This document shows, piece by piece, positions 284 through 12,289 of a stretch of DNA of 64,000 bases (the stretch's first letter is position 1; each line of letters begins with the position of its first letter). Both the position numbers and the translations under genes were made by a program. This stretch comes from a bacterium. Its GTDB lineage: Bacteria; Patescibacteriota; Andersenbacteria; UBA10190. Where the stretch lies: NCBI GenBank assembly GCA_002686445.1, contig NZCO01000007.1, forward strand, positions 5,483 through 69,482. Reading direction: 5' to 3'. The notes beneath the pieces were generated by a model. It made no database searches, had not been told where the DNA came from, and saw nothing but the letters and a program-made list of their open reading frames with translations.

Positions 284-2947
284 GTGATCTATTACACGCG
301 TATGAGCACTGCTTTTAAAGTGGGAAGTATCCTATTCATCGTCGTCCTCTTCGGGGGCGTTGTTTTGGCGCAAGCCGTTTCAGTACAGATAGAAGGGGTT
401 AGACATGTTGCCTACACAACTAATGCCGAGGAGCTGACTGCCAATCGTCTGGTTGGACAGACGTTTGTTTCCCCAAAAAAGAATCTGTCGGGCATAGGTG
501 TGTTATTCGCCACCTATTCTGGTAGGACTAACACACAGCAAGTTGAGCTCCATGTGCGTGCTTCGATCACTGACACTACGGACCTGCGGGTAGTGACGGC
601 TGATCCACGAGACTTTGGCGACAATCAGACGTACCGATTTACCTTTGACCCAATTCCGGAGAGCGATGGCGTGACTTTCTTTTTCTACGTGGTTTCTCCT
701 GGCAGTTCACCAGGTGACGCAGTCACCGTTGATCTTGATACCAGGGATCCGTATCACCTCGGCACTGCATTCTTGGTGCGCGGGCCACCCGAACTATTAA
801 ATCAGCCAACGGCGCTTGAGTTTGGCGGTAAGCAGACAATTGATGTGGCCTTTAGTACCTACCACACCGTCCCCGTTCGCACGGCGATCTTAGCGAGAGC
901 AGAGGGCGCGGCCAAGACATTCGTAGGCACCTTCTCCGAGCGACAAGGGGAGTACGGCCTATGGCTGAAGCTGACTGGGCCGGTGCTGGTCATATTGTTG
1001 CTGATGTGGGGCTTGAGTCGAGCGAACATAGAAAGCCGCCTGACCAAACCGCGAATTCTTATGGTGCTGGCGGCTTTAGTGATAGCCGGGTTCATCTGGC
1101 GCCTGTTTTATGCGGTTGATCTACCATTGACCAACGACGAAGGTAATTACCTCTACGACGCCTTTGCCCTACGCCAGGGTGTCTTAGCCGGTGGCGATGG
1201 GTACGTAAAGGCGCCGCTAGTTATAGGCTGGGTTGCACTGTGGCAAATGCTACTGGGTAACAGCATTATAGCCGCGCGCGTCGCGTCGATTGTGGTGGCG
1301 GTCTTGACCGCTGTACCGCTGTACGGCCTAGGTAAAAGCTTCGCTAATAAGCGCGCGGGATTGATGGTTGCGGCGCTGTGGCTACTGGCGGGAGCACCAG
1401 CGGTGTTTGGCATCTACGTTCACACCCAGGCCCTAGCGGTGCTGCTGGGCACTAGTGGCATAGCCCTACTGTGGGCCACACTACGCCAAGACAAACCAGT
1501 GCCCTGGAAATTCGTCATAGCCGGTGTGCTACTGGGGTTGGGTGTTGCGTCACGTAAAAGTGTGCTGGCCTTAGGGCTCCTACCACTCGTCTTTATTCTG
1601 CTCGAGTCTCCGTCATGGCGCCTGCGCGGACAGCGATTGCTCTTTACCGGACTCGGATTCGTTGCCGTGCTATTCATTCTGCTGGGTTATGCGGGCGCGC
1701 TCTACGGCGGGGAAGGGTTGCGGGAAGTAATTGGTTTGAACTCTGCAGAAGACGGGATCACCGCGGTGAACCCAGACGAGATAGAGCAGACACGCGCCTA
1801 TTCAATTCGAGGAGTCACGCCGTTCTTCCGCGAGGCATTCTCCCTGCTGGCGCTGGCGCTCATGGGTTGGGGTTTGGTGCTCGAGCGCACGACGCGTCGC
1901 ATAGTTGGTCTATTCGTCGTGGCGAAGCCGTCCAGGTATGTGCTGTGGCTAGTTGATCATTTGTTGCCTAAAATTGCATGGGTCTTCCCCCTGATCAGTC
2001 TCTGGGTGGCTTGGCAGTTCTTCTTTGAATACGAAGGTGAGATATACCACCGCTTTGGTGGCATGACTGGCCTGTGGTACACGGCTCTCCTACTTATGTT
2101 AGTGGTGCTACTGTGGCCGCGTGGTTCACGAGACGCGTTGCGGTTTACGGAAGCACCTATGGTGCCGGCTAGCACACAGCCGGTCCCATCGCGACTAGGC
2201 AGTATCAAGCCTGGGCCAGGAGAGGCTCTGCTGCACACTGAGCCGGTAGGGAAATTGCTCGCAGCCAGTCTGCTCTTACCGCTGTGGTTTGGCGGACTGT
2301 ATCTCTTCTATACCAACTGGATAAAGTTTCACGCGAATTACATAGTTGAATTTCTGGTGCCGGCCGTCATCTTGGGCGGGGTAGGTGCTGTGTATGTAGC
2401 TGCTCGACTGACGGACATTACTGGCTTTGGAGATCGACTGATACTGCTGGGAGTGTGGTTGCGGCGAGTGAGCGTCATCCTACTGTCCGCGTGGCTATTC
2501 TGGGGACTATACCTTAATAGCTACATTACGCGGACGGTGCCACATACCGGCACCTTTGATCAGGGAGCAGTCCAAGAAGCAGCGGACTGGTTGAGCCAGA
2601 ATGTCCCTGAGGACGAGACGCTGTTTACCGGTGCCGCGGCTATCCCCTACGTCGCTGAACGTCGCATCGCGCTCGATATTGCGCATCCACGATGGTATGC
2701 CTATGAATTCACTCGCAAAAACACGCCTCGCCTGAACACCTTCCTGCCCCCGATCGAGGAAATGCTACATGCGTATCGGACTGCTAATTGGTTCTTGCTT
2801 GATAAGCAGACAGGGTTCTCGTTCCTGATGGAATATAGCGAAATAGAGGCGGGTCTGGAGACTGACTGGCAGAAAGTACACGCCATTGAGAATGGCTCAA
2901 ATACGCTAACCTTTTACCGACGAACGCAGCCGTCTATCGAATTATAG
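284..2947 (+). CDS. GT-C fold membrane glycosyltransferase (ArnT/PMT GT39/83-like) with an N-terminal extracytoplasmic beta-rich module
   Basis: 887 aa. N-terminal hydrophobic anchor or signal (ILFIVVLFGGVVLAQA), then a ~95-aa module (VGQTFVSP...SPGSSPGDAVTV) shared with ORFs 7179 and 9200. Many TM helices follow, with a DEGNYLYDAF motif in the first loop (GT-C DE motif), and a ~180-aa C-terminal soluble domain. The GTG start at 284 versus ATG at 302 is ambiguous. Confidence 0.55.
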   Translation: MIYYTRMSTAFKVGSILFIVVLFGGVVLAQAVSVQIEGVRHVAYTTNAEELTANRLVGQTFVSPKKNLSGIGVLFATYSGRTNTQQVELHVRASITDTTDLRVVTADPRDFGDNQTYRFTFDPIPESDGVTFFFYVVSPGSSPGDAVTVDLDTRDPYHLGTAFLVRGPPELLNQPTALEFGGKQTIDVAFSTYHTVPVRTAILARAEGAAKTFVGTFSERQGEYGLWLKLTGPVLVILLLMWGLSRANIESRLTKPRILMVLAALVIAGFIWRLFYAVDLPLTNDEGNYLYDAFALRQGVLAGGDGYVKAPLVIGWVALWQMLLGNSIIAARVASIVVAVLTAVPLYGLGKSFANKRAGLMVAALWLLAGAPAVFGIYVHTQALAVLLGTSGIALLWATLRQDKPVPWKFVIAGVLLGLGVASRKSVLALGLLPLVFILLESPSWRLRGQRLLFTGLGFVAVLFILLGYAGALYGGEGLREVIGLNSAEDGITAVNPDEIEQTRAYSIRGVTPFFREAFSLLALALMGWGLVLERTTRRIVGLFVVAKPSRYVLWLVDHLLPKIAWVFPLISLWVAWQFFFEYEGEIYHRFGGMTGLWYTALLLMLVVLLWPRGSRDALRFTEAPMVPASTQPVPSRLGSIKPGPGEALLHTEPVGKLLAASLLLPLWFGGLYLFYTNWIKFHANYIVEFLVPAVILGGVGAVYVAARLTDITGFGDRLILLGVWLRRVSVILLSAWLFWGLYLNSYITRTVPHTGTFDQGAVQEAADWLSQNVPEDETLFTGAAAIPYVAERRIALDIAHPRWYAYEFTRKNTPRLNTFLPPIEEMLHAYRTANWFLLDKQTGFSFLMEYSEIEAGLETDWQKVHAIENGSNTLTFYRRTQPSIEL

Positions 2948-2960
2948 GGGTTCAGCGTCG

Positions 2961-3068
2961 GTGAATTGACAAAAGCACCTAATCATTGGCACTATAACAA
3001 CGCTTTAACGAGCGCAGTTAATAGGTACGTTACCAATTAAAAATAGACGTCTCGCAAGGAGCAATTAC
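2961..3068 (+). promoter_or_regulatory. Conserved upstream element, copy 1: TTGACA box, identical 21-bp core, second conserved block and SD
   Basis: TTGACA at 2966-2971. The 21-bp core TTGGCACTATAACAACGCTTT at 2986-3006 is identical to 3678-3698. A second conserved block GGTACGTTACCAA lies at 3024-3036. SD AAGGAGCA sits at 3056-3063, 5 nt before the ATG at 3069. Confidence 0.5.
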
Positions 3069-3626
3069 ATGTATGAACGCTTTACTGACCGCGCTCGCAA
3101 AGTTATGCAGCTGGCCCATCAAGAAGCGCTGCGGATGAATTTTGAGTACATCGGCACAGAGCACGTCCTGCTCGGATTGATTAAAGAGGGTTCGGGTGTT
3201 GCAGCACATGTGCTCAAGAATTTCGACATGGGCCTGCTCAATGTTCGCCAACAGATTGAGAAGCTCCTTGGGGCCGCACCTGCTGACAGGGTCGTGATAG
3301 GCAAGCTGCCGATGACACCGCGCGCCAAGCGGCTTCTCACATTCGCCGCGGCGGAAGCCCGCAATCTAGGGCACAACTGCGTCGGCACCGAACACCTGCT
3401 CTTGGCTCTAACACGATTAGATCAGTCTGTTGCTTGTCACGTCTGGCTCAGCCTAGGACATCGAATTGAGGATGTGCGCAGTGAAGTGTTCCATATGCTT
3501 GACTGTGATGATACTGCAGTGCTACCGGTTGAAACGTATTCCACTACGCGCGTTATCTACGTTGTGGACACGCACACGGTTGTGTCAGGCTGGTGGAACT
3601 GGCTCTACAGAGTTGTTATTGGCTAA
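3069..3626 (+). CDS. Standalone Clp N-terminal domain (Clp_N repeat) protein, no AAA+ module
   Basis: MYERFTDRARKVMQLAHQEALRMNFEYIGTEHVLLGLIKEGSGVAAHVLKNF... is a canonical ClpC/ClpB N-domain repeat 1 (ERFT..A..V...A..EA..L.H.YIGTEHLLLGL). The second half-repeat (LPMTPRAKRLLTFAAAEARNLGHNCVGTEHLLLAL) is more degenerate. It is followed by an atypical aromatic/hydrophobic tail. No Walker motifs are present. Confidence 0.8.
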   Translation: MYERFTDRARKVMQLAHQEALRMNFEYIGTEHVLLGLIKEGSGVAAHVLKNFDMGLLNVRQQIEKLLGAAPADRVVIGKLPMTPRAKRLLTFAAAEARNLGHNCVGTEHLLLALTRLDQSVACHVWLSLGHRIEDVRSEVFHMLDCDDTAVLPVETYSTTRVIYVVDTHTVVSGWWNWLYRVVIG

Positions 3627-3654
3627 TTAGAACCGTTCACGTTGTGGGCGGTTT

Positions 3655-3760
3655 TTAATTGACGAAACGCCCTAAAATTGGCACTATAACAACGCTTTTG
3701 AAGCACCATTAATTCGTACGTTACCAACAAAACATATTCGTTTAGGCAAGGAGCACTGAC
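3655..3760 (+). promoter_or_regulatory. Conserved upstream element, copy 2 (duplicate of 2961-3068)
   Basis: TTGACG at 3659-3664. Identical 21-bp core at 3678-3698. CGTACGTTACCAA at 3715-3727. SD AAGGAGCA at 3748-3755, 5 nt before the ATG at 3761. Confidence 0.5.
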
Positions 3761-4870
3761 ATGTATGAACGCTTTACGGATCGAGCTCGCAAGACCATGC
3801 AGCTGGCCAATCAAGAAGCACAGCGGTATAACCATGAGTACATTGGCACTGAGCATATTTTGCTTGGCTTAGCCAAGGAAGCCTCAGGCGTCGCGGCTAA
3901 TGTGCTCAAGAATCTAGATGTTGACCCAAGGGTGATTGTGCGTGAGGTTGGAAAACTCCTGCTTTCTGGGCCCGACATGGGGGTCACTATGGGCAAGCTA
4001 CCTCAGACCCCCAGGGCCAAGAAAGTCGTTGAGTTTTCCATGGATGAAGCACGCAACCTTCGTCACCATTACGTGGGGACCGAGCATATCTTGCTTGGAT
4101 TACTTCGTGAACTGGAAGGCGTTGCCGCTCAGGTACTGATCAATTTGGGTCTGCAGCTTGAGGCTGTCAGGGAAGAAACACTGAGTCTTTTGGGTGAGGG
4201 CGACCGCGGCCAGTCGTTGCGCGAGCTAGCGGCGGAAGCAGATTTGCCGTCTACTGCGGAGCTGGTCTACGAGCACACTCGTGTCGTCTTCGCAGTGACT
4301 CCGGTTAAGATCGACTGGCTAAGTTGGCTGCGCTCGCGTCGGATAGGGATCAGCTTGCTCGGACTAACTCGGTACTTGTCGTTTTCAGCGGGCTCGACCG
4401 CTGCCAGTAACGAACCCACAGGTCCGCCCAAGGAGAGCGATCAGGTAACGGCTGTGTGGCGCGAGGCAAACACTTTTGCGAAGGCGCAAAGGCGAGAATA
4501 CTTGGCTCCAGCAGACCTTCTCTATGGTGTCGCGGTTTGGGCCACAGATCCGCTGAGAGTGGTGTTGCGCGAGTATAACATCAAGACCGGACCAGTCAGA
4601 GCGGCGGTTGAACTTGCTGTGGGTCTCGGAACTGCTGAGTTCACTATGACCACTCTGCCCAAAACGCCTAACGCCAGGGCGATTCGCAAGGCGATGTGTG
4701 ACAGGGCAGCTGCAGCCGGTAGCGCTGAGGTTACGCTCCTTCATCTGGTCGAAGCATTGCTCGAAGAGCATGATGACGATCTATATCGGGTGATGATTCA
4801 AATCGGATCCCTACCAGAGCACCTAGCCGCGGAGATCCACCAGCGAGTGAGATTGGCGCAGCCCGCCTAA
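3761..4870 (+). CDS. Tandem-Clp_N protein: two complete Clp N-domain double repeats, no ATPase
   Basis: 369 aa. Residues 1-145 form a ClpC-like N-domain (MYERFTDRARKTMQLANQEAQRYNHEYIGTEHILLGL...LPQTPRAKKVVEFSMDEARNLRHHYVGTEHILLGLL). Residues ~230-360 form a second Clp_N-like unit (AVWREANTFAKAQRREYLAPADLLYGV...LPKTPNARAIRKAMCDRAAAAGSAEVTLLHLVEALL). No Walker A/B motifs. Confidence 0.8.
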   Translation: MYERFTDRARKTMQLANQEAQRYNHEYIGTEHILLGLAKEASGVAANVLKNLDVDPRVIVREVGKLLLSGPDMGVTMGKLPQTPRAKKVVEFSMDEARNLRHHYVGTEHILLGLLRELEGVAAQVLINLGLQLEAVREETLSLLGEGDRGQSLRELAAEADLPSTAELVYEHTRVVFAVTPVKIDWLSWLRSRRIGISLLGLTRYLSFSAGSTAASNEPTGPPKESDQVTAVWREANTFAKAQRREYLAPADLLYGVAVWATDPLRVVLREYNIKTGPVRAAVELAVGLGTAEFTMTTLPKTPNARAIRKAMCDRAAAAGSAEVTLLHLVEALLEEHDDDLYRVMIQIGSLPEHLAAEIHQRVRLAQPA

Positions 4871-7126
4871 CTATATGCCGTTTGCTTTTGCAAGCGGTTT
4901 TTTTCTTACCACCAATGCGACGCAGGCCAGTGCGGAGATAGTGCTTACAACAATTCCGAGAGCGAGCGGCCGAGGGCGATAGTGCATCTGCACTAGATGT
5001 GTACCCGGGGGAACATCAATCGAACGGAAGAAAGGATCGACCTGGTTAATAGTTGCTGGCTGACCATCAATGGTGGCCTGCCAGCCTGGGTACCAGGTAT
5101 CACGAACCAGCAATTCGCCCGCGGTATCAGTAGTGACGTCGAGTCGCACGTGCGCCGGTGATACTTGTTTGTAGGTAACCGGGGTAATGACCTCCGGCGT
5201 AATAAGCTCGGCGCGAGGGTAGGTACCGTTTACGTAGATGGTCCCGGCTGCTAATTCGTTTGCCGAGCCGTAGTATGTGCGCATTGTCTCGTCTTCGACT
5301 ACGACGGCGGCGATGTTAAGTTCAGTGACCAAGGTGCCGAAGACTGGTGTGGTCAGACTACTACGCAGTGCTTCGAGCTGCTGACTATGCACAGTCATTG
5401 GCAGAGACGCCGGCCACTCAATGCCCGGCAGACCAAATTGGGCGTATGTAAGCGGGCCTAGTAGTTCTCGATTGCTCCTATCTGCTGCGGGTCGTCGTGA
5501 GGCAGGGTTAGTTAGCAGTAATCCCGTGTCACCACCCTCGCGTCGGAAGGTGGCGATGCGCGCGCGTCCGGCCCTAACTGAGTCCGGGACTTGCTCAAGC
5601 GCCGCGGGCGGCGCTAACAGCGTTTGCCATGAAACCGCTGGGCTGGTGAGCGAAGCAATGATGATGAGCTCGGCTACGGCAATTGCAGTAACGACCCGCC
5701 GTTGCCGATACAGGAGAGCGGCTAAGCCAAGCGTTACCAGGGGCAAGAACGTGAACGGTGAGCGCCAGCTAAGCGCGGAAGTCTGTAGGCTGATTACCAA
5801 CTGCTCAAGTTTATCGATGTAGTAGGCGGGAGACCTGCCAGAAACCAACTCTGGGGCTCGCTCCTGTATAGCCTGGTAGGCTAACGCAGCACCGTTGTCA
5901 GGAACTAACCACAGGCCAACATTGTAGAGCACGACCACCGCCAAGATAGCGACAAAGCCGACTCGCAAGTAGCGCCGCAGAAGCGCAGGCGTTCGTTGCA
6001 GATTATCAAACGCATGTGCGGCCAGTAGCGCACCAGCAAAGGTAGTAAACAATAGCCAGCGAGCGGGGGCGGAAAATAGCCACAGCGACGGCTCGAATCC
6101 CAGTAACCGGAACGGGGACAGATTTCCTAGGGCAAGCAAGAAGGATACGAGCAGCAGTACCCACCAGAATCGCAATTGTCGTCTAATTCTCCAGGCCGCG
6201 GCTGCAAGCAGCAGCGGCAAGGTGCCAATAAAGAAACCATATTCAATCTCGAGCCGTTTACCCCAATACGCTGCATCCGTATCAAAGAAGCGCGGGAATA
6301 CGGCAGTCGGTAGATGATATAGCGGCCAGCTATGTTGGTTCGCCTGCGTCAGATCGAAGTCACCGCCCCCGCGATCAGACAGCCGGGTCAGCTCTGCTGT
6401 CGGCAGGAGCTGTGCAGAGGCTAAGCCAACTGCAAGCACTACAGCCAATAAGAAAACAAGGAGCAAGCGATGCCAGGGGAGACGATTCACCCAGCGCTGG
6501 TGGAACAAATACAGGGCCGTGATACCAGCGGTCATTAGGGGGGTTTGGATGTGACCGGCGAGGAAGGGCAGACCGAAAACAAGAGCTAGTAAGGCAAGGT
6601 GACGCGCGCGTGGCCGCGAAGCGCGAGCGACCGACTGGGCAACCAGCAACTGCCACGGTAGCCAACTCAACACAATAATGATGTTGAAATGAGTGGCGTG
6701 TTGCCATACGAATTGACTCAAGGCAAAAGCGCAGGCGCCGAGTATGGCGGCGAGTGCACTTACGCGTTGGGCGCGCAGTAGCAGATAGGTACCGGCGGCG
6801 GCTGCAAAAATATGTAGGTAAAACAGCGCCGGTAGATACAGCCAGATCGGGAACAGGCGACCAATGAGTAGTAACGGATAAAAGAAGCCTAATTGCGCAG
6901 AGGCGAGCACGGGGAACCCCCAGGCAATGTCGGGATTCCAGGAGGGGAGTCGACCAGCCAGCTGTTCACTCTGGAAGAAGGTCTCCAGGGGAATATACAC
7001 GTCGGCGGTGTCACCCGTGCCGTAGTATTGGCCAGCAAAAATTGGCGCAGCCGCCAACCCAATTACTACTGCCAGGATTACCAGCACGGCGAGGCGTTTC
7101 ATGCGATAATTGTAAGATGAAACCAC
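4871..7126 (-). CDS. YfhO-family-like polytopic membrane protein (GT-C-like glycosyltransferase)
   Basis: 751 aa. N-terminal region ...YIPLETFFQSEQLAGRLPSWNPDIAWGFPVLASAQLGFFYPLLL... is followed by more than 10 TM helices. The C-terminal soluble domain ends ...TWYPGWQATIDGQPATINQVDPFFRSIDVPPGTHLVQMHYRP, the characteristic YfhO C-terminal beta-domain pattern (W..W.a.vDG....i..v......v.v..G.H.v...Y). The start could be the internal Met at ~7102. Confidence 0.6.
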   Translation of the reverse strand: MVSSYNYRMKRLAVLVILAVVIGLAAAPIFAGQYYGTGDTADVYIPLETFFQSEQLAGRLPSWNPDIAWGFPVLASAQLGFFYPLLLIGRLFPIWLYLPALFYLHIFAAAAGTYLLLRAQRVSALAAILGACAFALSQFVWQHATHFNIIIVLSWLPWQLLVAQSVARASRPRARHLALLALVFGLPFLAGHIQTPLMTAGITALYLFHQRWVNRLPWHRLLLVFLLAVVLAVGLASAQLLPTAELTRLSDRGGGDFDLTQANQHSWPLYHLPTAVFPRFFDTDAAYWGKRLEIEYGFFIGTLPLLLAAAAWRIRRQLRFWWVLLLVSFLLALGNLSPFRLLGFEPSLWLFSAPARWLLFTTFAGALLAAHAFDNLQRTPALLRRYLRVGFVAILAVVVLYNVGLWLVPDNGAALAYQAIQERAPELVSGRSPAYYIDKLEQLVISLQTSALSWRSPFTFLPLVTLGLAALLYRQRRVVTAIAVAELIIIASLTSPAVSWQTLLAPPAALEQVPDSVRAGRARIATFRREGGDTGLLLTNPASRRPAADRSNRELLGPLTYAQFGLPGIEWPASLPMTVHSQQLEALRSSLTTPVFGTLVTELNIAAVVVEDETMRTYYGSANELAAGTIYVNGTYPRAELITPEVITPVTYKQVSPAHVRLDVTTDTAGELLVRDTWYPGWQATIDGQPATINQVDPFFRSIDVPPGTHLVQMHYRPRPLALGIVVSTISALACVALVVRKKPLAKANGI
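4878..4904 (+). terminator. Intrinsic terminator for the plus-strand Clp_N gene, embedded in the 3' coding end of the convergent minus-strand gene
   Basis: CCGTTTGC-tttt-GCAAGCGG hairpin (7/8 bp) at 4878-4897, followed by TTTTTTT at 4898-4904. The stop codons of the two convergent genes abut (TAA at 4868-4870, CTA/TAG at 4871-4873). Confidence 0.5.
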
Positions 7127-7178: not shown

Positions 7179-9203
7179 ATGACGGTATCGAAGCAAATTA
7201 TAGCCACCGTATTATTGGGTTTATTGGCTTTTAGCCTGCGTTTTCCCGGCGCAGGCTCATTTACGACAGTTGATGAGTTTAATTGGATGGGACGCAGTCA
7301 AACCTTTTGGCACGAGCTATTCTACGACCGGGACATAGGAGGCACGTTTGTCACCAGTCACCCTGGAGCTACGGCCACGTGGTTGGCCGGTGCAGGTATC
7401 TTTTGGCAAGAAAATCAGTTGGGCCAAGAGTTTAGTGCCAACAACGTGGCCCATTTCCGACGCTACGCCACCGCGCCAATTGTGCTGACTATCGCCGTTC
7501 TGATTGCTGTGGTTACAGCGCTGGCCATTAGCGTCTTTGGTTTAGTGCCGGGAATTATCACTGGGCTCATCTTGGCAACTGAACCGTATCTGATCGGGAT
7601 GGGACAAGTGGTGCATTTGGATATGTTGCAGGCCTTGTTCATGCTCACCGCGCTGCTGGGCGTCTTACGCATGCGCGTCGACAAACATCGCAAATGGATT
7701 TGGTTGGTGGGCGTTATGTTTGGTCTCGCACTGGCTACCAAGATGGTGTTGGCATTGTGGCTACTACCATTCATTGGCTGGCCCTTGGTTACTGCGTTGG
7801 CCCTTCGTCGAGGGCGAAACGCGATTATCGTAGAAGTTAAACGAGTATTCACTATTATCGTGCTGGGAGTAGTAGCGCTGGCTATACTTTGGCCAGCCTT
7901 GCTCGCGCAACCTGATTTCCAGCTGGGGTATATCTCACGGGATACCGGGAGCGTGATCACTCAAGAACATGTCGCCCTGTCAGCGGGTAGCGACCCGATC
8001 GCTCCTTGGACATTCTATGCGCGTACGTTCCTGGCTCGTAGTTCACTACTTGTCCTCGCTGGTACTCTGGCGGCTGTGCTCGTGCTCGCCTATCGTCGCC
8101 AAAAATCATGGCAGTGGCACGACATAGGCACAGTTTTACTCTATTTATTGGGCTATCTTATTGCGATTAGTTTTGCGGCCAAAAAGGCTGATCGCTATGC
8201 CCTGCCTGCCCTGGCTGCATTGCCGCTGCTCGTTGGCTGGGTAGTTGCCTTATTACTGCCGATAGCGACCGTTCGTATTAAGCAGTTACGTACTGCCAAG
8301 CAAACCACCGTAGTGGCGATTGGCGCTATTTTGGTTATTGGTCTGGCGAGCGCTTGGCTCTGGCTGCCACACGCAATTGCGTACAATAACCCGCTGTTCC
8401 CTGACCTGCGCTCACGGTCACAGCAGGGCTGGGGAGAAGGCCTTGAGGATGCGGCTGCTTGGCTCAATCAATTGCCGGATGCTGAACAGATTCGTGTCGC
8501 CTCCTGGTATCAGTCTGCCTTTCGCGCTCACTTCAATGGATTAACCACCTCGTTGTCCGCGCGTGATGATTATCGCGTTACCTACCTCGTGACGTATCGC
8601 AACATGGGCGGTCGCGCGGGGGATACGCTCGCCAGCGATGTGCTTGATGAGTTTAAGAACCAAACACCCGTTCATGTGGTGAGCATCCGGGGACTAGAAT
8701 ATGCCTGGATATATAAGCTGAATAATGTGGGTGAATATATCAAGACAGCAGGAGAATTAACTACCGGGGTGGAGCACGGTCAAACTATTACTGTTGAGGA
8801 CGACGGCTGGAGCTTCATGGAGATCGGCTTTGCTACCTATGGTGACCGGGCAAATACAGAAGATGTGCTGGTGCATATCAGACAGAGCATCGCTGATACC
8901 AGAGATATTCGAACCATACGGATACCGGTTGCGGATATCATCGATAATAAGTGGCACGAGATTGAGTTTGAGGAAATCCAAGATAGCGGTAACAAGACAT
9001 ACTACGTCGCTATTACCAGTCCTACAGCAACGGCGGGGAACGCGATCACCACTCGATACACCGATTCCGACATTCAGTCGGGCCAGCTGTTCATTCGTCG
9101 GCATGCTCGCCGGTTAGGAGAAGACCAAGCCCAGTATCTGCGTGCGGGAGACTTAGCTGTCCGCGTGCCGTACTGGCAGTTTATTACGCACGATACGCAA
9201 TGA
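7179..9203 (+). CDS. GT-C fold membrane glycosyltransferase (ArnT/PMT-like) with C-terminal soluble domains, paralog A
   Basis: 674 aa. N-terminal TM, then FTTVDEFNWMGRSQTFWHE (DE motif loop), then ~12 TM helices. The C-terminal region contains the conserved block QQGWGEGLEDAAAWLNQLPDAEQIRVASWYQSAF...YLVTYRNMGG...EYAWIYK (shared with 9200 and 21091) and the ~95-aa beta-module (GQTITVEDD...ITSPTATAGNAITTRY). Its end overlaps the start of the next gene by 4 nt. Confidence 0.6.
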   Translation: MTVSKQIIATVLLGLLAFSLRFPGAGSFTTVDEFNWMGRSQTFWHELFYDRDIGGTFVTSHPGATATWLAGAGIFWQENQLGQEFSANNVAHFRRYATAPIVLTIAVLIAVVTALAISVFGLVPGIITGLILATEPYLIGMGQVVHLDMLQALFMLTALLGVLRMRVDKHRKWIWLVGVMFGLALATKMVLALWLLPFIGWPLVTALALRRGRNAIIVEVKRVFTIIVLGVVALAILWPALLAQPDFQLGYISRDTGSVITQEHVALSAGSDPIAPWTFYARTFLARSSLLVLAGTLAAVLVLAYRRQKSWQWHDIGTVLLYLLGYLIAISFAAKKADRYALPALAALPLLVGWVVALLLPIATVRIKQLRTAKQTTVVAIGAILVIGLASAWLWLPHAIAYNNPLFPDLRSRSQQGWGEGLEDAAAWLNQLPDAEQIRVASWYQSAFRAHFNGLTTSLSARDDYRVTYLVTYRNMGGRAGDTLASDVLDEFKNQTPVHVVSIRGLEYAWIYKLNNVGEYIKTAGELTTGVEHGQTITVEDDGWSFMEIGFATYGDRANTEDVLVHIRQSIADTRDIRTIRIPVADIIDNKWHEIEFEEIQDSGNKTYYVAITSPTATAGNAITTRYTDSDIQSGQLFIRRHARRLGEDQAQYLRAGDLAVRVPYWQFITHDTQ

Positions 9204-11170
9204 AGAGGTCGATCGGCGTTTTTATCGTCCTGGCGATCACGCTCGTAGCCCTGGTCGTTCGGTTGCCGGGGTTGGGAACGTTTATGACTGTCGACGAAGA
9301 ATCCTGGATGCTACGCAGCGGTGAGTTTTGGCACAAACTCGTACAACAAGGTGATCCAGGAGGGACGTTCTTGACTACGCATCCCGGAGCCACCACTATG
9401 TGGTTGGCGGGTGCGGGAATCGCGGCGCAGGAAGCGCGCCTAGGTTTTAACATCGATACGTCGAACTTACGACACTTCCGACTAGCGGCGACCTTGCCCA
9501 TTGCGATTGCCACCTCGCTGCTTATCGGGCTGATAACGCTGTGGCTCGTTCCTGTTATAGGTAAGCCGCAGGCGATAGGAGGCGGCGTGGTGCTGGCTAC
9601 AGCTCCCTTTTTGACGGGTCTGAGTCAAATTGTGCACCTTGATGCCTTGTTGGCTTTGTGTATGGTCGGCAGTCTGGTCTGTTGGTTAGGCTTTATGCAT
9701 GATGGACGATGGTCTCGCGCTATCGGCGCTAGCGTTTTAGCAGGCCTGGCGCTGGTTACGAAGTTCATAGTAGCGAGCTGGCTTGTTCCCGTGCTGGGAC
9801 TCATCGCGCTATGGCACGTACGTCGGGACCTTGCATCATTCTGGCCCTGGTTGGTTCGTGTGGTTGGTTTGGCGCTGGGCATCACGGTGTTGACTGCCTT
9901 CATAGCCTGGCCGGCACTATGGGAAAAAACTGACCTGACTGCATCGTTTGAACGAGACATCGCAAACGTGGTCACGCAGGAGCACACTGCATTAGAAATC
10001 AGTCGTGACCCGATTGCCCCAGCTAGTTTCTACCTGCGTACCGTGGCCGGGCGGGTACCGATCCACACGTTATTACTACTGGCCGCTGCAGTTGTTGTGT
10101 CAGTTCGAGCTTTGCGACAGCGCCAGGGAAAGAGCGCGCCACTTGTCTGGTTCCTGATATATGCAATTGGTTTCTTAGTCCTTCTCACATTTGCAGCAAA
10201 GAAGGCTGACCGCTATGCGCTGCCGGCGCTGGCTGCCTTCTCGGTGCTCGCCGGTTGGCTTGGGACCGCGGGCTGGTTACATCTTGCAGCCCGCTTTGGT
10301 TGGACAGCTCGCTGGCGCAGTATCAGCGCCGGAATACTCGTTCTCCTACTGGTGGCCGTCCCGCTGCTCATCTCTCCGCATGCCAGCGCCTATATGACAC
10401 CATTCGGGCGATCCGTACTGCCACTGCCGCAGCAAGGCTGGGGACAGGGTCTGGAACAGGCAGCTACTTGGCTCAATACGCACCCGCTGGCTGATCAAGT
10501 ACGCGTCGCGTCCTGGTATCCGTCAGTCATGCGTGCCTACTTTAACGGGGAAACGTTTAGCTTAAGCTCTCGCCATGATGATCGCGTTAGCTATATCGTT
10601 ACCTACCGCAACATGGAGGGTAGGGAGCAAGACGACATAGCCAGCAACGTATTGGACGAACTGGTAGAGCGCCTACCAGTGCATGTGGTGAACGTGAATA
10701 ACGTTCCCTACGCCTGGATTTATAAAACAGACAGTCTGGTACTGTATGACCGAAACATTGGAGAGCTGACTAATGACGTACTAGTAGGGCAAACGTTCAC
10801 ATCGCCAACAGCCTCACTGAGTGCAATCGATATAGGCTTTGCTACTTTTAGCAGCAGGGCTAATACACAGGACGTGATCGTAACTTTGTACAATGGTATT
10901 GGCGGAGAGACGCTGCGAACAGTGGTAACTTCGGCAACCGATATTGAGGATCGTTCTTGGCACCGCTTTAGCTTCGAGCCACTTACTGTGGAGGCGAGTA
11001 GGGAGCTATATATCACCGTGACTAGCCCGACGTCCACGCCGGGTGATGCGGTGACGGTATTGTATGCCAATGCGGATATTGCTTCAGGTTCGATGCAGCA
11101 GCAGCGTGCTGCAACGAGTGAACTAAAGACATCACTAGGCGCTGATATTGCCTACCGGCTGTACCCGTAA
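9200..11170 (+). CDS. GT-C fold membrane glycosyltransferase (ArnT/PMT-like), paralog B
   Basis: 656 aa, collinear with 7179-9203: FMTVDEESWMLRSGEFWHKL, many TM helices, QQGWGQGLEQAATWLNTHPLADQVRVASWYPSVMRAYFNG...YIVTYRNMEG...PYAWIYK, then the beta-module VGQTFTSPTASLSAIDIGFATFSSRANTQDV...TSPTSTPGDAVTVLY. Confidence 0.6.
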   Translation: MKRSIGVFIVLAITLVALVVRLPGLGTFMTVDEESWMLRSGEFWHKLVQQGDPGGTFLTTHPGATTMWLAGAGIAAQEARLGFNIDTSNLRHFRLAATLPIAIATSLLIGLITLWLVPVIGKPQAIGGGVVLATAPFLTGLSQIVHLDALLALCMVGSLVCWLGFMHDGRWSRAIGASVLAGLALVTKFIVASWLVPVLGLIALWHVRRDLASFWPWLVRVVGLALGITVLTAFIAWPALWEKTDLTASFERDIANVVTQEHTALEISRDPIAPASFYLRTVAGRVPIHTLLLLAAAVVVSVRALRQRQGKSAPLVWFLIYAIGFLVLLTFAAKKADRYALPALAAFSVLAGWLGTAGWLHLAARFGWTARWRSISAGILVLLLVAVPLLISPHASAYMTPFGRSVLPLPQQGWGQGLEQAATWLNTHPLADQVRVASWYPSVMRAYFNGETFSLSSRHDDRVSYIVTYRNMEGREQDDIASNVLDELVERLPVHVVNVNNVPYAWIYKTDSLVLYDRNIGELTNDVLVGQTFTSPTASLSAIDIGFATFSSRANTQDVIVTLYNGIGGETLRTVVTSATDIEDRSWHRFSFEPLTVEASRELYITVTSPTSTPGDAVTVLYANADIASGSMQQQRAATSELKTSLGADIAYRLYP

Positions 11171-11193
11171 ACTTTCCACAATAAAACCATTGC

Positions 11194-11208
11194 GGCCAAT
11201 AATTGGCC
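11194..11208. promoter_or_regulatory. Perfect 15-bp palindrome GGCCAATAATTGGCC upstream of orphan gene 11282
   Basis: Read directly from sequence, about 75 nt upstream of the ATG at 11282. SD AAGGAGAAGAGG immediately precedes the start. Confidence 0.4.
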
Positions 11209-11281
11209 TGGTAAACTGCTAAACGGCCTTGAAGCAGGGTGCACATTTCACTTGGACATTCGTCCATAAGGAGAAGAGGCA

Positions 11282-12289
11282 ATGGATGTGACGCAGCTTT
11301 TAGAGCGACCGAGTCGTAGTACTTCCAGGGTGACCAGGAATCGTTGGTCTAGTCGGAGGCATACAGCGAAGGATCGCCGTCCGACGACGATTGGGTTTGG
11401 CGACATGCAGTTTGCCACCGTGCAAGGTGCCGTCGACGCGTTTGAGTATCCGCTGGTAGGGATCGCCCACCAGGACATCAGCGTGCCGAAGGCAAGCGCG
11501 ATGGCCACGCTGCGCGAAGCACTGCTGCAACGCTACACGGGACCAGAGTGTTGGCGTGGACTGTGGTGGTTAACGTGTCGTAACCAGCCCGCTTTGTTCG
11601 ACCAGTACACGGTGGTTACTATGCCCAAGCCAAGCAACGCGATCGTGGCTGGCAATCATGTGTTCCAGATGGAGTGGAACGCAACTGGAGTTGACGCTCG
11701 CGACATGCACAGTCTGCGTCCTGACCAGCGTGGTCAGGTGCATGGTGCTATCAATGATGGGAAGCTTCGTTTTCCGGTCAATGAGTTCGACCATGTCCTC
11801 ATGCGACCCGTCTTTGCCGAAAATAACGGTCGGCTGGGCGCGTTAATGAGTGTGGCTGCCGTGCAGCGCGAAGCGCAGCGAATGGAAAGCGCGTTGCACA
11901 ACTTCTGTTACTACCAAGGACCGTTTATCAGGATGGCCCGAGGTACTCGTTCCGCCTGGTCGTACTCGCGCAACTTAGTGGGTCGTCTGGGAGTGGAGTC
12001 GTTGGAAGCCGCCGAGTTTATTGGCATGACAGTTTCTGACATTAGCGAAGCACGTATTCAGAGACGCATGCGCATGTTGGCTCGCATGATGGACCCACGG
12101 GAATATCTCTGGGACCCAATCTGGGCCGTGAGCATCCCGCAGTGGCGACCAGCACAAGGTGGCAGGCGCTGTCCCCTTGTCTACGGCCGCCGCCGGATCG
12201 ACTACTTGTGCCGAGTCGTGCACTGGATAGACGACTGGTTCAACGTCGCGACCATCCGCACCGCAGACGAACTGGCGGGCGTCGCCTAA
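11282..12289 (+). CDS. Hypothetical protein with Arg-rich N-terminus; no recognisable family
   Basis: 335 aa ORF with a strong SD (AAGGAGAAGAGG) and its own downstream terminator. The N-terminus RPSRSTSRVTRNRWSSRRHTAKDRRP is highly basic. No TM segments, no motif I recognise. Confidence 0.5.
   Translation: MDVTQLLERPSRSTSRVTRNRWSSRRHTAKDRRPTTIGFGDMQFATVQGAVDAFEYPLVGIAHQDISVPKASAMATLREALLQRYTGPECWRGLWWLTCRNQPALFDQYTVVTMPKPSNAIVAGNHVFQMEWNATGVDARDMHSLRPDQRGQVHGAINDGKLRFPVNEFDHVLMRPVFAENNGRLGALMSVAAVQREAQRMESALHNFCYYQGPFIRMARGTRSAWSYSRNLVGRLGVESLEAAEFIGMTVSDISEARIQRRMRMLARMMDPREYLWDPIWAVSIPQWRPAQGGRRCPLVYGRRRIDYLCRVVHWIDDWFNVATIRTADELAGVA

What the first reader, a model, noticed from the sequence alone, without database searches (positions are those of the whole stretch)
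2961..4904. Tandem paralogous standalone Clp N-domain proteins (no AAA+ ATPase) embedded in a glycan locus
Two adjacent genes (3069-3626 and 3761-4870) encode only the ClpC/ClpB-type N-terminal repeat domain. The second carries two full N-domains in tandem. Neither has Walker A/B or any ATPase module. Standalone Clp_N proteins are known in mycobacteria (ClpC2/ClpC3), where they bind ClpC1-targeting natural-product antibiotics and ClpC1 substrates and act as decoys or sponges. A tandem, promoter-duplicated pair here is an unusual regulatory or protective module. It sits between GT-C glycosyltransferase genes rather than near any clpC/clpP gene.
Basis: partly seen in the sequence, partly recalled or inferred. 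Interest (0 to 1): 0.7.

Follow-up and report, generated by a model that had tools for sequence, protein, structure and literature searches.

The report
Tandem ATPase-less ClpC N-domain genes
Two neighbouring genes in a marine bacterium's sugar-coat gene cluster encode only the ligand-binding "head" of the ClpC protein-unfolding machine, without its motor. Proteins like this are common but unstudied, so the pair is real and moderately interesting rather than exceptional.

Summary
ORF1 (3069-3626, 185 aa) and ORF2 (3761-4870, 369 aa) each begin with a canonical ClpC-type N-domain: Pfam Clp_N E 7e-24 and 5e-30, and 53% identity at 1.4 A rmsd to the Mtb ClpC1 NTD. Neither has an AAA+ module, and the 64-kb window holds no AAA+ remnant.

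ORF2's C-terminal half is a second Clp_N domain, but a degenerate one. Pfam misses it, it is about 23% identical to the first domain, and it has lost both GTEH pocket motifs.

ORF1 is an old tandem duplicate of the promoter, the N-domain and a family-specific R..W..WL motif. It is still under purifying selection. The ~108-nt leaders are 76% identical, against 58% for the coding DNA.

The long form keeps its place between two GT-C genes in the only two related contigs found. It is absent from 24 more distant Patescibacteria clusters and from GTDB representative genomes.

Thousands of AAA-less Clp_N proteins exist, often in tandem, mostly of Planctomycetota type. ORF2's N-domain is 84% identical to a genuine ClpC N-domain from such a genome.

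It is not a ClpC2 family member. The most likely mechanism, which is inferred, is a motor-less binder or competitor for ClpC-NTD ligands. A link to glycan synthesis is unproven.

The parts
2961..3068 (+). Leader/promoter copy 1. -35 TTGACA at 2966-2971, an 18-nt spacer, and TGn plus -10 CACTAT at 2987-2995. Conserved 21-mer at 2985-3005, 12-mer GTACGTTACCAA at 3025-3036, Shine-Dalgarno AAGGAG at 3056-3061.
   Evidence: It is 76% identical to copy 2 and 78% identical to the ortholog leader in L004, against 58% nt identity in the N-domain coding DNA. The 21-mer and 12-mer each occur only twice in the window. The promoter reading is my own inspection. The consensus scan did not call it. There is no Rfam hit and no supported RNA fold.
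3069..3626 (+). ORF1, 185 aa. A ClpC-type N-domain (aa 1-147, nt 3069-3509) followed by a 38-aa tail carrying the family motif R161...W175..W178-L179. No AAA+ module.
   Evidence: Pfam Clp_N E 6.8e-24. AF2 pLDDT is 80-90 over the N-domain and low over the tail. It is 49% identical to ORF2 residues 1-196. Against ORF2, pS is 0.79 (saturated) and pN is 0.30, so the gene is under purifying selection. It is identical to GenBank MAF80466.1, 'hypothetical protein [bacterium]'. No ORF1-type copy exists in L004.
3631..3656 (+). Weak hairpin (AACCG...CGGTT) followed by a T-run, lying between ORF1 and leader copy 2. A possible terminator, at or near the duplication junction.
   Evidence: Read from the sequence. 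The terminator scan did not call it because the loop is longer than 8 nt. Similarity between ORF1 and ORF2 ends at the ORF1 stop codon.
3653..3760 (+). Leader/promoter copy 2. -35 TTGACG at 3659-3664, a 17-nt spacer, and TGn plus -10 CACTAT at 3679-3687. 21-mer at 3677-3697, 12-mer at 3716-3727, Shine-Dalgarno AAGGAG at 3748-3753.
3761..4201 (+). ORF2 N-domain (aa 1-147). A canonical ClpC-type NTD with both GTEH motifs.
   Evidence: Pfam E 4.7e-30. PDB sequence match to the ClpC NTD at E 1e-42. Foldseek match to the Mtb ClpC1 NTD at TM 0.93 and rmsd 1.4 A. 84% identical to the NTD of a genuine 925-aa ClpC in L035. dN/dS is 0.18 against ortholog P0049.
4202..4426 (+). ORF2 linker (aa 148-222). 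It contains the family-specific motif (aa ~170-205, nt 4268-4375) with R174, W186, W189 and L190 invariant across the four proteins aligned.
   Evidence: Alignment A2. AF2 confidence is low, with only a tentative beta-hairpin plus short helix. No Pfam family. The only true relative among 1.8 billion representatives is P0122. No transmembrane segment.
4427..4870 (+). ORF2 C-domain (aa 223-369) plus the stop codon. A degenerate second Clp_N domain. GTEH has become APAD and TLLH, and the domain has its own conserved motif Y(L/V)xP(A/C)(D/E)(L/I/V)L(Y/F)G.
   Evidence: Pfam negative. phmmer E down to 6.6e-12 against positions 6-139 of Clp_N proteins. BLASTP 23% identity to the ORF1 NTD, E 6e-4. 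AF2 predicts 8 helices at pLDDT 80-90. Alignment A6. dN/dS is 0.34 against P0049.
4877..4898 (+). Terminator-like hairpin and T-run just after ORF2. It lies inside the 3' end of the convergent YfhO gene (4871-7126, minus strand).
   Evidence: Terminator scan. ORF coordinates.

Best explanation
SHOWN. The locus holds two independently transcribed genes for soluble, motor-less proteins built from ClpC-type N-domains.
- ORF2 is the conserved 'long form'. It has a canonical N-domain with intact phospho-arginine-pocket and K85 residues. This is followed by a lineage-specific R..W..WL linker motif and a degenerate second Clp_N domain that has lost both pocket glutamates.
- ORF1 is an old tandem duplicate of the promoter, the N-domain and the motif. 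The duplicate was truncated at its junction and is still under purifying selection.
- Both genes keep a strongly conserved ~108-nt promoter/leader, so they are probably co-regulated.
- The N-domain is of the Planctomycetota ClpC type. The proteins belong to the very large, uncharacterised group of AAA-less Clp_N proteins.

INFERRED mechanism. With no ATPase, they can act only by binding. The canonical N-domain most likely binds the same ligands as a ClpC N-domain: phospho-arginine-tagged or unfolded substrates, adaptor proteins, or NTD-directed peptides. It would thereby titrate or buffer them, or sense them, as mycobacterial ClpC2/ClpC3 do. The degenerate C-domain and the Trp motif would supply a second, family-specific contact, either self-association or an unknown partner. 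ORF1 would then be a single-headed competitor or partner of ORF2.

The position inside the GT-C cluster is best read as inherited from one insertion in a small clade, not as evidence of a role in glycan synthesis.

The confidence given (0.45) is for the whole statement including the inferred mechanism. The identity and anatomy alone I would put at about 0.95.
For: Domain identity and absence of a motor.

Conserved ligand-site residues: T6, E31, T83-P-R-A-K87 and E108 are present in ORF1 and ORF2, while both Glu are lost in all C-domains. The roles of these residues come from PMC12583610, and the ClpC2 T99A result from PMC13345244.

Both genes are functional:
- Synonymous sites are saturated (pS 0.79) with pN 0.30 between ORF1 and ORF2.
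- dN/dS is 0.18 for the NTD and 0.34 for the CTD against P0049.
- Orthologs P0049 and P0122 are full length.
- Identical proteins were recovered from several TARA assemblies.

Duplication: L004 has a single gene in a 117-nt-flanked slot. The duplicated unit runs from ~2950 to ~3652.

Leader under selection: 76-78% identity, against 58% in the coding DNA.

Separate transcription units: each gene has its own promoter-like site and Shine-Dalgarno. A hairpin follows ORF2, and a clean terminator precedes the L005 ortholog.

Membership of the AAA-less group, and a link to Clp:
- All 120 best hits lack AAA+.
- L035 has a short plus long tandem pair 2.4 kb from a genuine clpC, and the short protein's NTD is 94% identical to that ClpC's NTD.
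- ORF2's NTD is 84% identical to that ClpC NTD.

Precedent for binding and titration by N-domain-only proteins: PMC10030653, PMC13345244 and PMC10864484.
Against: - No ligand binding has been tested. Conserved pocket residues do not prove that pArg binds.
- No full-length ClpC, ClpP or McsB is known for this organism, and none lies in the 64-kb window.
- The surrounding genes point to Patescibacteria. The common Clp ATPase there has no N-domain or a very different one, so there may be no native ClpC N-domain to compete with.
- The cyclomarin-type groove residue F80 is not conserved, which weakens an antibiotic-sponge reading.
- The gene has kept its position between the same GT-C genes in all three lineages available. 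A functional tie to the cluster is therefore not excluded.
- The linker motif and the inter-domain arrangement are not confidently modelled (pTM 0.42).
Confidence: 0.45

Rival explanations
1. Dedicated accessory of the GT-C glycosylation cluster. The long-form protein binds cytosolic parts of the neighbouring PMT_2/YfhO membrane glycosyltransferases, or their substrates. It would control their stability, assembly or turnover, possibly through peripheral membrane association by the Trp-rich motif.
For: - The gene keeps the same slot (PMT_2 -> Clp_N -> convergent YfhO -> PMT -> PMT_2 -> unk335 -> PMT_2) in L004 and L005. YfhO is 81% and 57% identical in these two loci.
- The long-form architecture was found nowhere else among 1.8 billion representatives, the GTDB representative genomes or the JGI metagenomes.
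- Some other AAA-less Clp_N proteins carry C-terminal hydrophobic anchors: the L035 short form and P0017.
Against: - The gene has its own promoter and terminators and is not in an operon with the GT-C genes.
- It is absent from 24 Patescibacteria loci carrying the homologous YfhO. Two of these (L008, L009) show extended synteny of the cluster.
- It evolves much faster than its neighbours: 53% and 45% identity, against 57-82% for full-length neighbours.
- Only three lineages are available, all fairly closely related, so vertical inheritance is enough to explain the synteny.
- No transmembrane segment is predicted.
- Other AAA-less Clp_N genes sit in unrelated contexts.
Confidence: 0.12
2. Trans-acting N-domain for an N-domain-less Clp ATPase, a 'split ClpC'. 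The free N-domain proteins dock on the compact ~550-aa double-AAA+ Clp ATPase typical of Patescibacteria. They would supply substrate or adaptor recognition in trans, with the Trp motif or the degenerate C-domain serving as the docking element.
For: - A 561-aa Clp ATPase lacking both N-domain and M-domain is encoded in the closest GTDB relative of the cluster (L008). This form is widespread in Patescibacteria.
- The window proteins have exactly the part that this ATPase lacks.
- Each has an extra conserved element of unknown function after the N-domain.
Against: - No such ATPase is known from the window organism.
- No co-occurrence was shown. L008 has no Clp_N gene within 10 kb, and the window has no ATPase.
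- The ATPase belongs to a separate conserved module with a TraG/TrwB-like protein.
- In the L035 genome, AAA-less Clp_N proteins coexist with a complete ClpC, so they do not generally replace a missing N-domain.
Confidence: 0.08
3. ORF1, or the whole pair, is a non-functional by-product. Either it is a truncated duplicate drifting toward loss, or it is the remnant of a disrupted full-length clpC.
For: - ORF1 is the most divergent N-domain of the family: 51-57% identical to the other family members and 43% to the B. subtilis ClpC NTD.
- It has substitutions at otherwise conserved positions, for example E89->T and GLLRE.EGVAAQVL -> ALTRLDQSVACHVWL.
- It has no ortholog in L004.
Against: - No AAA+ remnant exists anywhere in the window.
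- ORF2 has full-length orthologs and abuts a convergent gene.
- ORF1 is intact over 185 codons even though synonymous sites are saturated. pN (0.30) is far below pS (0.79).
- ORF1 keeps T6, both GTEH motifs, TPRAK, the R..W..WL motif, a conserved promoter and a good Shine-Dalgarno.
Confidence: 0.06

Closest known systems
N-terminal domain of ClpC (B. subtilis ClpC, M. tuberculosis ClpC1; PDB 5HBN, 3WDB)
   Same: - Same fold and sequence family: 53-57% identity, TM 0.93 and rmsd 1.4 A.
- Both GTEH motifs and the T7, E32, E106 and K85 equivalents are kept in the N-domains of ORF1 and ORF2.
   Different: - Not attached to any AAA+ motor, M-domain or ClpP-docking loop.
- Followed instead by a family-specific Trp motif and, in ORF2, by a degenerate second Clp_N domain.
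- Mtb F80 is Q in ORF2 and M in ORF1.
Uncharacterised AAA-less single or multi-Clp_N proteins of Planctomycetota type ('Clp protease N-terminal domain-containing protein'), e.g. P0041 of Planctomyces sp. SH-PL14 and the L035 and L036 tandem pairs
   Same: - No ATPase, and one or more ClpC-type N-domains starting MYERFTDRARK.
- Frequent tandem genes, including a short plus long pair.
- ORF2's NTD is 70-84% identical to them and to the ClpC NTD of the same genome type.
   Different: - In those proteins every repeat is a near-canonical N-domain. Here the second domain has lost the pocket motifs and is invisible to Pfam.
- The R..W..WL linker motif is unique to the window clade.
- The genomic setting is a Patescibacteria-like GT-C cluster rather than a Planctomycete genome.
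Actinobacterial ClpC2 (and ClpC3)
   Same: A small protein with a ClpC-NTD-like domain and no ATPase. ClpC2 binds pArg and NTD-directed cyclic peptides, and acts as a sponge and sensor (PMC10030653, PMC13345244, PMC10864484). This is the best-studied functional analogue.
   Different: - ClpC2 has its Clp_N at the C-terminus, behind a DNA-binding part, and represses its own promoter. Here the Clp_N is N-terminal and no DNA-binding domain is detected.
- Sequence similarity is much weaker than to the ClpC NTD (E 1e-17 to 2e-10 against 1e-42).
- Of the CymA contacts F2, F80 and E89, position 80 is changed in both ORFs (Q in ORF2, M in ORF1). E89 is kept in ORF2 and is T in ORF1. F2 is Y in both.
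Chloroplast ClpT1/ClpT2 (PDB 4Y0B, 4Y0C)
   Same: A free-standing double Clp-N-repeat protein without an ATPase.
   Different: - Only distant similarity (E 3e-9 and 8e-8).
- From my own knowledge, ClpT acts on the plastid ClpP/R core. No ClpP is known here, and no ClpT-specific feature was tested.

Membership tests
Clp_N domain (Pfam PF02861, double-repeat N-domain of Clp/Hsp100) | A significant match to the Clp_N repeat model, two repeats per domain | tested here: met
   ORF1 E 6.8e-24 and ORF2 E 4.7e-30, each with two stretches, against a cutoff of 20.7 bits.
Clp_N domain (Pfam PF02861, double-repeat N-domain of Clp/Hsp100) | An eight-helix pseudo-twofold fold that superposes on a solved ClpC NTD | tested here: met
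   The ORF2 model matches 8IBO/3WDB at TM 0.89-0.93 and rmsd 1.4 A. ORF1 shows the same helix pattern at pLDDT 80-90.
Clp_N domain (Pfam PF02861, double-repeat N-domain of Clp/Hsp100) | The second domain of ORF2 (aa 223-369) is also a Clp_N domain | tested here: met
   Pfam is negative. Homology is shown by phmmer, E down to 6.6e-12, aligned to positions 6-139 of Clp_N proteins. BLASTP gives E 6e-4. AF2 gives the same 8-helix pattern. The domain is degenerate, and both GTEH motifs are lost.
ClpC / class I Clp-Hsp100 ATPase | Two AAA+ modules with Walker A and Walker B motifs | tested here: not met
   No AAA family in Pfam. No Walker A or B in any frame of 2900-4950. A 925-aa ClpC query matches only through its residues 1-150. 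NCBIfam ClpB/ClpA/ClpK hits are far below cutoff and cover the N-domain only.
ClpC / class I Clp-Hsp100 ATPase | M-domain/UVR coiled coil and a ClpP-docking loop | tested here: not met
   No UVR (PF02151) hit. The 'IGI/LGL' tripeptides in the ORF2 linker are not conserved in P0049 or P0122.
Actinobacterial ClpC2 | Architecture: an N-terminal DNA-binding part followed by a C-terminal Clp_N domain | tested here: not met
   The Clp_N domain is at the N-terminus. No DNA-binding family was found in the remainder.
Actinobacterial ClpC2 | Conserved cyclomarin/rufomycin contacts (ClpC1 F2, F80, E89; PMC10030653) | tested here: not met
   ORF2 has Y2, Q82 and E91. ORF1 has Y2, M82 and T91 (alignment A6).
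Actinobacterial ClpC2 | A phospho-arginine pocket that binds pArg | tested here: inconclusive
   The pocket residues (T6, GTEH twice, TPRAK) are conserved in both N-domains. Binding itself cannot be tested here.
Actinobacterial ClpC2 | Autorepression through operators in its own promoter | not testable with these tools
   A strongly conserved leader exists. No palindromic operator was found, and the proteins have no DNA-binding domain.
AAA-less (multi-)Clp_N proteins of Planctomycetota type (uncharacterised) | One or more ClpC-type N-domains, no AAA+ module, and an N-domain close to the Planctomycete ClpC NTD | tested here: met
   The top 120 homologs all lack AAA+. ORF2's NTD is 84% identical to the L035 ClpC NTD and 81% to the L035 short form. 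ORF1 is 63% and 60% identical.
AAA-less (multi-)Clp_N proteins of Planctomycetota type (uncharacterised) | All repeats are near-canonical N-domains | tested here: not met
   ORF2's second domain is ~23% identical to the first and lacks both GTEH motifs. This subfamily is therefore a divergent variant.
Chloroplast ClpT1/T2 | A free Clp_N protein that binds the ClpP/R core | not testable with these tools
   Only weak sequence similarity (E 3e-9 and 8e-8). No ClpP is known for this organism.

The most novel reading that the evidence does not exclude
The bacterium is a Patescibacteria (CPR) episymbiont whose own Clp ATPases lack a ClpC-type N-domain. It acquired a Planctomycetota-type ClpC N-domain by horizontal transfer, and ORF2's N-domain is 84% identical to a genuine ClpC NTD of that type. 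It then turned the domain into motor-less mimics. These mimics either (a) act in trans on its N-domain-less Clp ATPase, or (b) interfere with a host cell's ClpC, adaptor or phospho-arginine system. The rapidly evolving C-domain and Trp motif would provide the lineage-specific function.
Probability: 0.06. Interest if true: 0.8.

Novelty: new variant of a known kind. Interest (0 to 1): 0.4.

Why it matters
N-domain-only relatives of ClpC are known to matter in mycobacteria, where ClpC2 and ClpC3 blunt ClpC1-directed antibiotics and sense phospho-arginine. Yet the far larger set of AAA-less Clp_N proteins in environmental bacteria has no assigned function.

This locus offers a compact, tractable example with several useful contrasts:
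- One canonical and one degenerate N-domain in the same protein.
- A naturally truncated paralog.
- A strongly conserved leader.

Comparing these would help separate which N-domain surfaces are used when no motor is attached.

If the organism really is a CPR bacterium without a ClpC-type N-domain of its own, the pair would also be a clear case of a foreign regulatory domain being domesticated. As it stands, it is a solid annotation improvement and a hypothesis generator, not a surprise.

Tried and rejected
1. Broken clpC. Rejected: no AAA+ remnant by Pfam, motif scan or tblastn with a full ClpC.
2. Riboswitch or known RNA in the conserved leaders. No Rfam hit at E<=1. RNAalifold gives only -2 kcal/mol with one covarying pair. 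No inverted repeat or operator was found.
3. Sigma-54, CIRCE or CtsR-type sites in the leader. By inspection the GG/GC spacing is wrong and no CIRCE partner arm exists. The sigma-70 scan did not call the site either. My reading, TTGACR-17/18-TGnCAYWAT, is a manual one.
4. Membrane anchoring. No segment reaches transmembrane hydrophobicity.
5. ClpP-docking IGF/IGL loop in the linker. The tripeptides are not conserved in the orthologs.
6. More family members. The GTDB genome scan and the JGI metagenome scan with the C-terminal alignment found nothing new. The 1.8-billion-representative search found only P0122. P0125 is a spurious low-complexity hit.
7. A Clp_N gene next to YfhO homologs in 24 GTDB loci. 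None was found.
8. Phage origin. Only N-domain-level hits, for example in mycobacteriophages Myrna and Phabba.
9. An ancestral link between the L008 N-less Clp ATPase and the window's Clp_N slot. Rejected: that ATPase belongs to a separate conserved module with a TraG-like gene.
10. Literature on Planctomycete or CPR Clp_N-only proteins. Nothing relevant was found.
11. AF2 of the linker or tail. Low confidence in both models, so no structural claim is made for the Trp motif.

Full report
**1. What is there**

The region 2961-4904 contains two same-strand ORFs: ORF1 (3069-3626, 185 aa) and ORF2 (3761-4870, 369 aa). Both score strongly against Pfam Clp_N, at E 6.8e-24 and 4.7e-30. In each, the two matched stretches make one complete N-domain at residues 1-147. 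ORF2 residues 1-150 match the solved B. subtilis ClpC N-domain at E 1e-42. They match mycobacterial ClpC2 at E 1e-17 to 2e-10, and plant ClpT much more weakly. An AlphaFold2 model of ORF2 (mean pLDDT 72, domains 80-90) superposes on the M. tuberculosis ClpC1 NTD with TM 0.93, rmsd 1.4 A and 53% identity. The ORF1 model gives the same eight helices.

**2. No motor**

No AAA+ family is found in either protein. There is no Walker A or B motif in any frame of 2900-4950 and no hydrophobic segment of membrane-spanning strength. A genuine 925-aa ClpC used as a tblastn query hits the 64-kb window only through its first 150 residues, at these two genes. ORF2's stop abuts the stop of a convergent YfhO gene.

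**3. The second half of ORF2**

Pfam finds nothing in residues 184-369. A phmmer search of 1.8 billion cluster representatives aligns residues ~226-359 to positions 6-139 of many Clp_N proteins, down to E 6.6e-12. BLASTP aligns the region to the ORF1 N-domain at 23% identity. AF2 predicts a second eight-helix domain at pLDDT 80-90. It is therefore a real but degenerate Clp_N domain.

In an alignment with the Mtb and Bsu ClpC NTDs, the N-domains of ORF1 and ORF2 keep both GTEH motifs, T6 and TPRAK. In Bsu/Sa numbering these correspond to E32, E106, T7 and K85, which define the two phospho-arginine pockets and a key regulatory contact (PMC12583610). The C-domains of ORF2, its orthologs and a further paralog have lost GTEH in both repeats: ORF2 reads APAD and TLLH, and both pocket positions lack Glu in every C-domain. 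They share a motif of their own, Y(L/V)xP(A/C)(D/E)(L/I/V)L(Y/F)G. The cyclomarin contacts of ClpC1 (F2, F80, E89; PMC10030653) are Y, Q, E in ORF2 and Y, M, T in ORF1.

**4. A shared extra element**

After the N-domain, ORF1 and ORF2 and the orthologs share a short motif with invariant R174, W186, W189 and L190 (ORF2 numbering). ORF1 ends 6 residues after it. It has no Pfam family and is modelled at low confidence. The only true relative found for it among the representatives is ortholog P0122.

**5. Duplication and selection**

The ~108 nt upstream of each ORF are 76% identical. Both are 72-78% identical to the leader of the ortholog in L004. The N-domain coding DNA is only 58% identical, with saturated synonymous sites (pS 0.79, pN 0.30). 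An exact 21-mer and an exact 12-mer occur only at these two places in the window.

I read the conserved blocks as -35 TTGACR, a 17-18-nt spacer, TGn plus -10 CAYWAT, a ~65-nt 5' UTR, and AAGGAG 7 nt before the ATG. The consensus scan did not call this site. No Rfam family, supported RNA fold or palindrome was found.

Similarity between the two copies ends at the ORF1 stop. The closest relative, L004, has a single long-form gene directly after the PMT_2 gene. ORF1 is therefore a tandem duplicate of promoter, N-domain and motif that was truncated at the junction. It is old, intact and constrained, so it is probably functional. ORF2 is also constrained, with dN/dS 0.18 (NTD) and 0.34 (CTD) against P0049.

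**6. Distribution and context**

The long-form architecture is rare. It is found in the window organism (identical copies in several TARA assemblies), in P0049 (L004) and in P0122 (L005). It was not found in the GTDB species representatives or the JGI metagenomes with the patterns used.

In all three lineages the gene lies between a PMT_2 gene and a convergent YfhO gene. In L005 the downstream order PMT, PMT_2, unk335, PMT_2 is also kept. L005 carries a second, upstream gene ending in a degenerate C-domain, so it too has a tandem pair.

The neighbours are more conserved than the Clp_N protein. YfhO is 81% and 57% identical, against 53% and 45% for ORF2. Twenty-four GTDB loci with the homologous YfhO (27-53% identity) carry no Clp_N gene within 10 kb. 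Two of them show extended synteny of the GT-C cluster. Most of these loci are from Patescibacteria or Andersenbacteria. The association is thus confined to one small clade, and a single insertion followed by vertical descent explains it.

**7. Who is the organism, and where does the N-domain come from?**

GenBank lists ORF1 as a hypothetical protein of an unclassified 'bacterium' MAG. The GT-C cluster and the AsnB gene of the window have their best named relatives in Candidatus Andersenbacteria and the Patescibacteria group. All of this evidence comes from the glycan locus itself, so the assignment is probable, not proven.

In contrast, the N-domains are closest to AAA-less Clp_N proteins of Planctomycetota type. 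ORF2's NTD is 84% identical to the NTD of a genuine 925-aa ClpC in such a genome (L035). That is more than to its own orthologs, at 72% and 62%.

Patescibacteria commonly encode a ~550-aa Clp ATPase with no N-domain, and a ~730-aa form whose N-domain is very different. If the taxon call is right, the ClpC-type N-domain is foreign to this lineage.

**8. How unusual is it?**

Not very, as a class. The first homolog search returned 7,875 hits, and its best 120 all lacked AAA+ modules. Many carry two to four N-domains or fusions to UVR or four-helix-bundle domains. Tandem genes recur. L035 has a 194-aa short form (N-domain plus hydrophobic tail, 94% identical to the adjacent ClpC's NTD) followed by a 349-aa double form, 2.4 kb from clpC. 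L036 has a 333-aa and a 283-aa pair. I found no functional literature on this group. The specific variant here is new: a canonical N-domain, a Trp motif and a degenerate Clp_N, plus a truncated paralog, in a CPR-like glycan cluster.

**9. Mechanism**

Shown: these are soluble proteins with intact ClpC-NTD ligand-site residues, no motor, separate and similar promoters, and purifying selection.

Inferred: they act by binding ClpC-NTD ligands (pArg-tagged or unfolded proteins, adaptors, NTD-directed peptides). They would titrate or sense these ligands, as shown for ClpC2/ClpC3 (PMC10030653, PMC13345244, PMC10864484). The degenerate domain and Trp motif would supply a second, lineage-specific contact. 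ORF1 would be a single-headed competitor or partner.

The weak points are these:
- No cognate ClpC, ClpP or McsB is known for this organism.
- F80 is not conserved.
- The conserved position in the GT-C cluster remains unexplained.

The rivals, scored separately, are a glycan-cluster accessory, a trans-acting N-domain for an N-less Clp ATPase, and a non-functional by-product.

**10. Verdict**

This is not a member of the ClpC2 family. It is a divergent member of the large uncharacterised group of AAA-less Clp_N proteins. Interest is moderate (0.4). It is a good, testable system, but standalone and tandem Clp_N genes are common, and the link to glycan synthesis rests on position alone.

Noticed in passing
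L008:14669-16354 (-); also L038:3594-5279 and the P0295 contig: Patescibacteria encode a compact ~550-aa double-AAA+ Clp ATPase with no N-domain, no M-domain and no evident ClpP-docking tripeptide. It sits in a conserved module: unknown 626-726-aa protein -> ATPase -> small ORF -> TraG/TrwB-like coupling protein. A ~730-aa form has a very divergent Clp_N domain.
   Followed up: partly
L035:5384-7050 and 9505-12282: A Planctomycete-like contig has a tandem short (194 aa, N-domain plus hydrophobic C-terminal tail) and long (349 aa, double N-domain) AAA-less pair, 2.4 kb upstream of a genuine 925-aa clpC. The short form's N-domain is 94% identical to that ClpC's N-domain, which suggests recent copying or concerted evolution.
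   Followed up: partly
window 284-2947, 7179-9203, 9200-11170: Three GT-C (PMT_2-type) paralogs share a ~100-aa soluble domain with motifs GQTF.SP, FAT(Y/F)..R.NT.DV and TSP.S..G(D/N)A(V/I)T. It is N-terminal in the 887-aa protein and C-terminal in the 674-aa and 656-aa proteins, which looks like a domain permutation among paralogs (translations; cross-hit).
   Followed up: no
window 11282-12289: A 335-aa protein with no Pfam or NCBIfam family is conserved (57% identity) at the same position of the GT-C cluster in L005. It is an uncharacterised cluster component.
   Followed up: no
window 1-64000: The whole window is one very large glycan locus. It holds at least 8 GT-C-type membrane proteins (PMT/PMT_2, YfhO, DUF6541), more than 15 GT1/GT2/GT4/GT9 enzymes, several methyltransferases, epimerases, AsnB, an ABC exporter and a polysaccharide deacetylase. 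If the organism is a small-genome CPR bacterium, this is a large share of its genome. GC dips to 0.47-0.50 at 28-38 kb.
   Followed up: partly
window 4868-4908: The stop codons of ORF2 (4868-4870) and of the convergent YfhO gene (starting at 4871) abut. A terminator-like hairpin with a T-run (4877-4898) lies inside the YfhO 3' coding end, possibly a shared bidirectional terminator.
   Followed up: no
window 3025-3036 / 3067-3075 and the copy-2 equivalents: The conserved leader block GTACGT can pair with ACATGTA, which spans the start codon, in all four leaders compared. The predicted energy is only -2 kcal/mol with one covarying pair, so this is not evidence of a translational switch.
   Followed up: partly
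phage records NC_011273.1 (Myrna gp251) and NC_054714.1 (Phabba): Mycobacteriophages Myrna and Phabba carry ClpC-NTD-like ORFs, 42-48% identical to the ORF2 N-domain and annotated 'Clp family protein, ATPase domain'. N-domain-only genes therefore also occur in phages.
   Followed up: no
L005:3-482: The ortholog locus L005 has a second Clp_N-family gene immediately upstream, cut by the contig end. It ends in a degenerate C-domain (YVCPADVLYGLAV). A clean terminator hairpin at 500-521 separates it from the P0122 promoter. Tandem duplication therefore arose more than once in this small family.
   Followed up: partly
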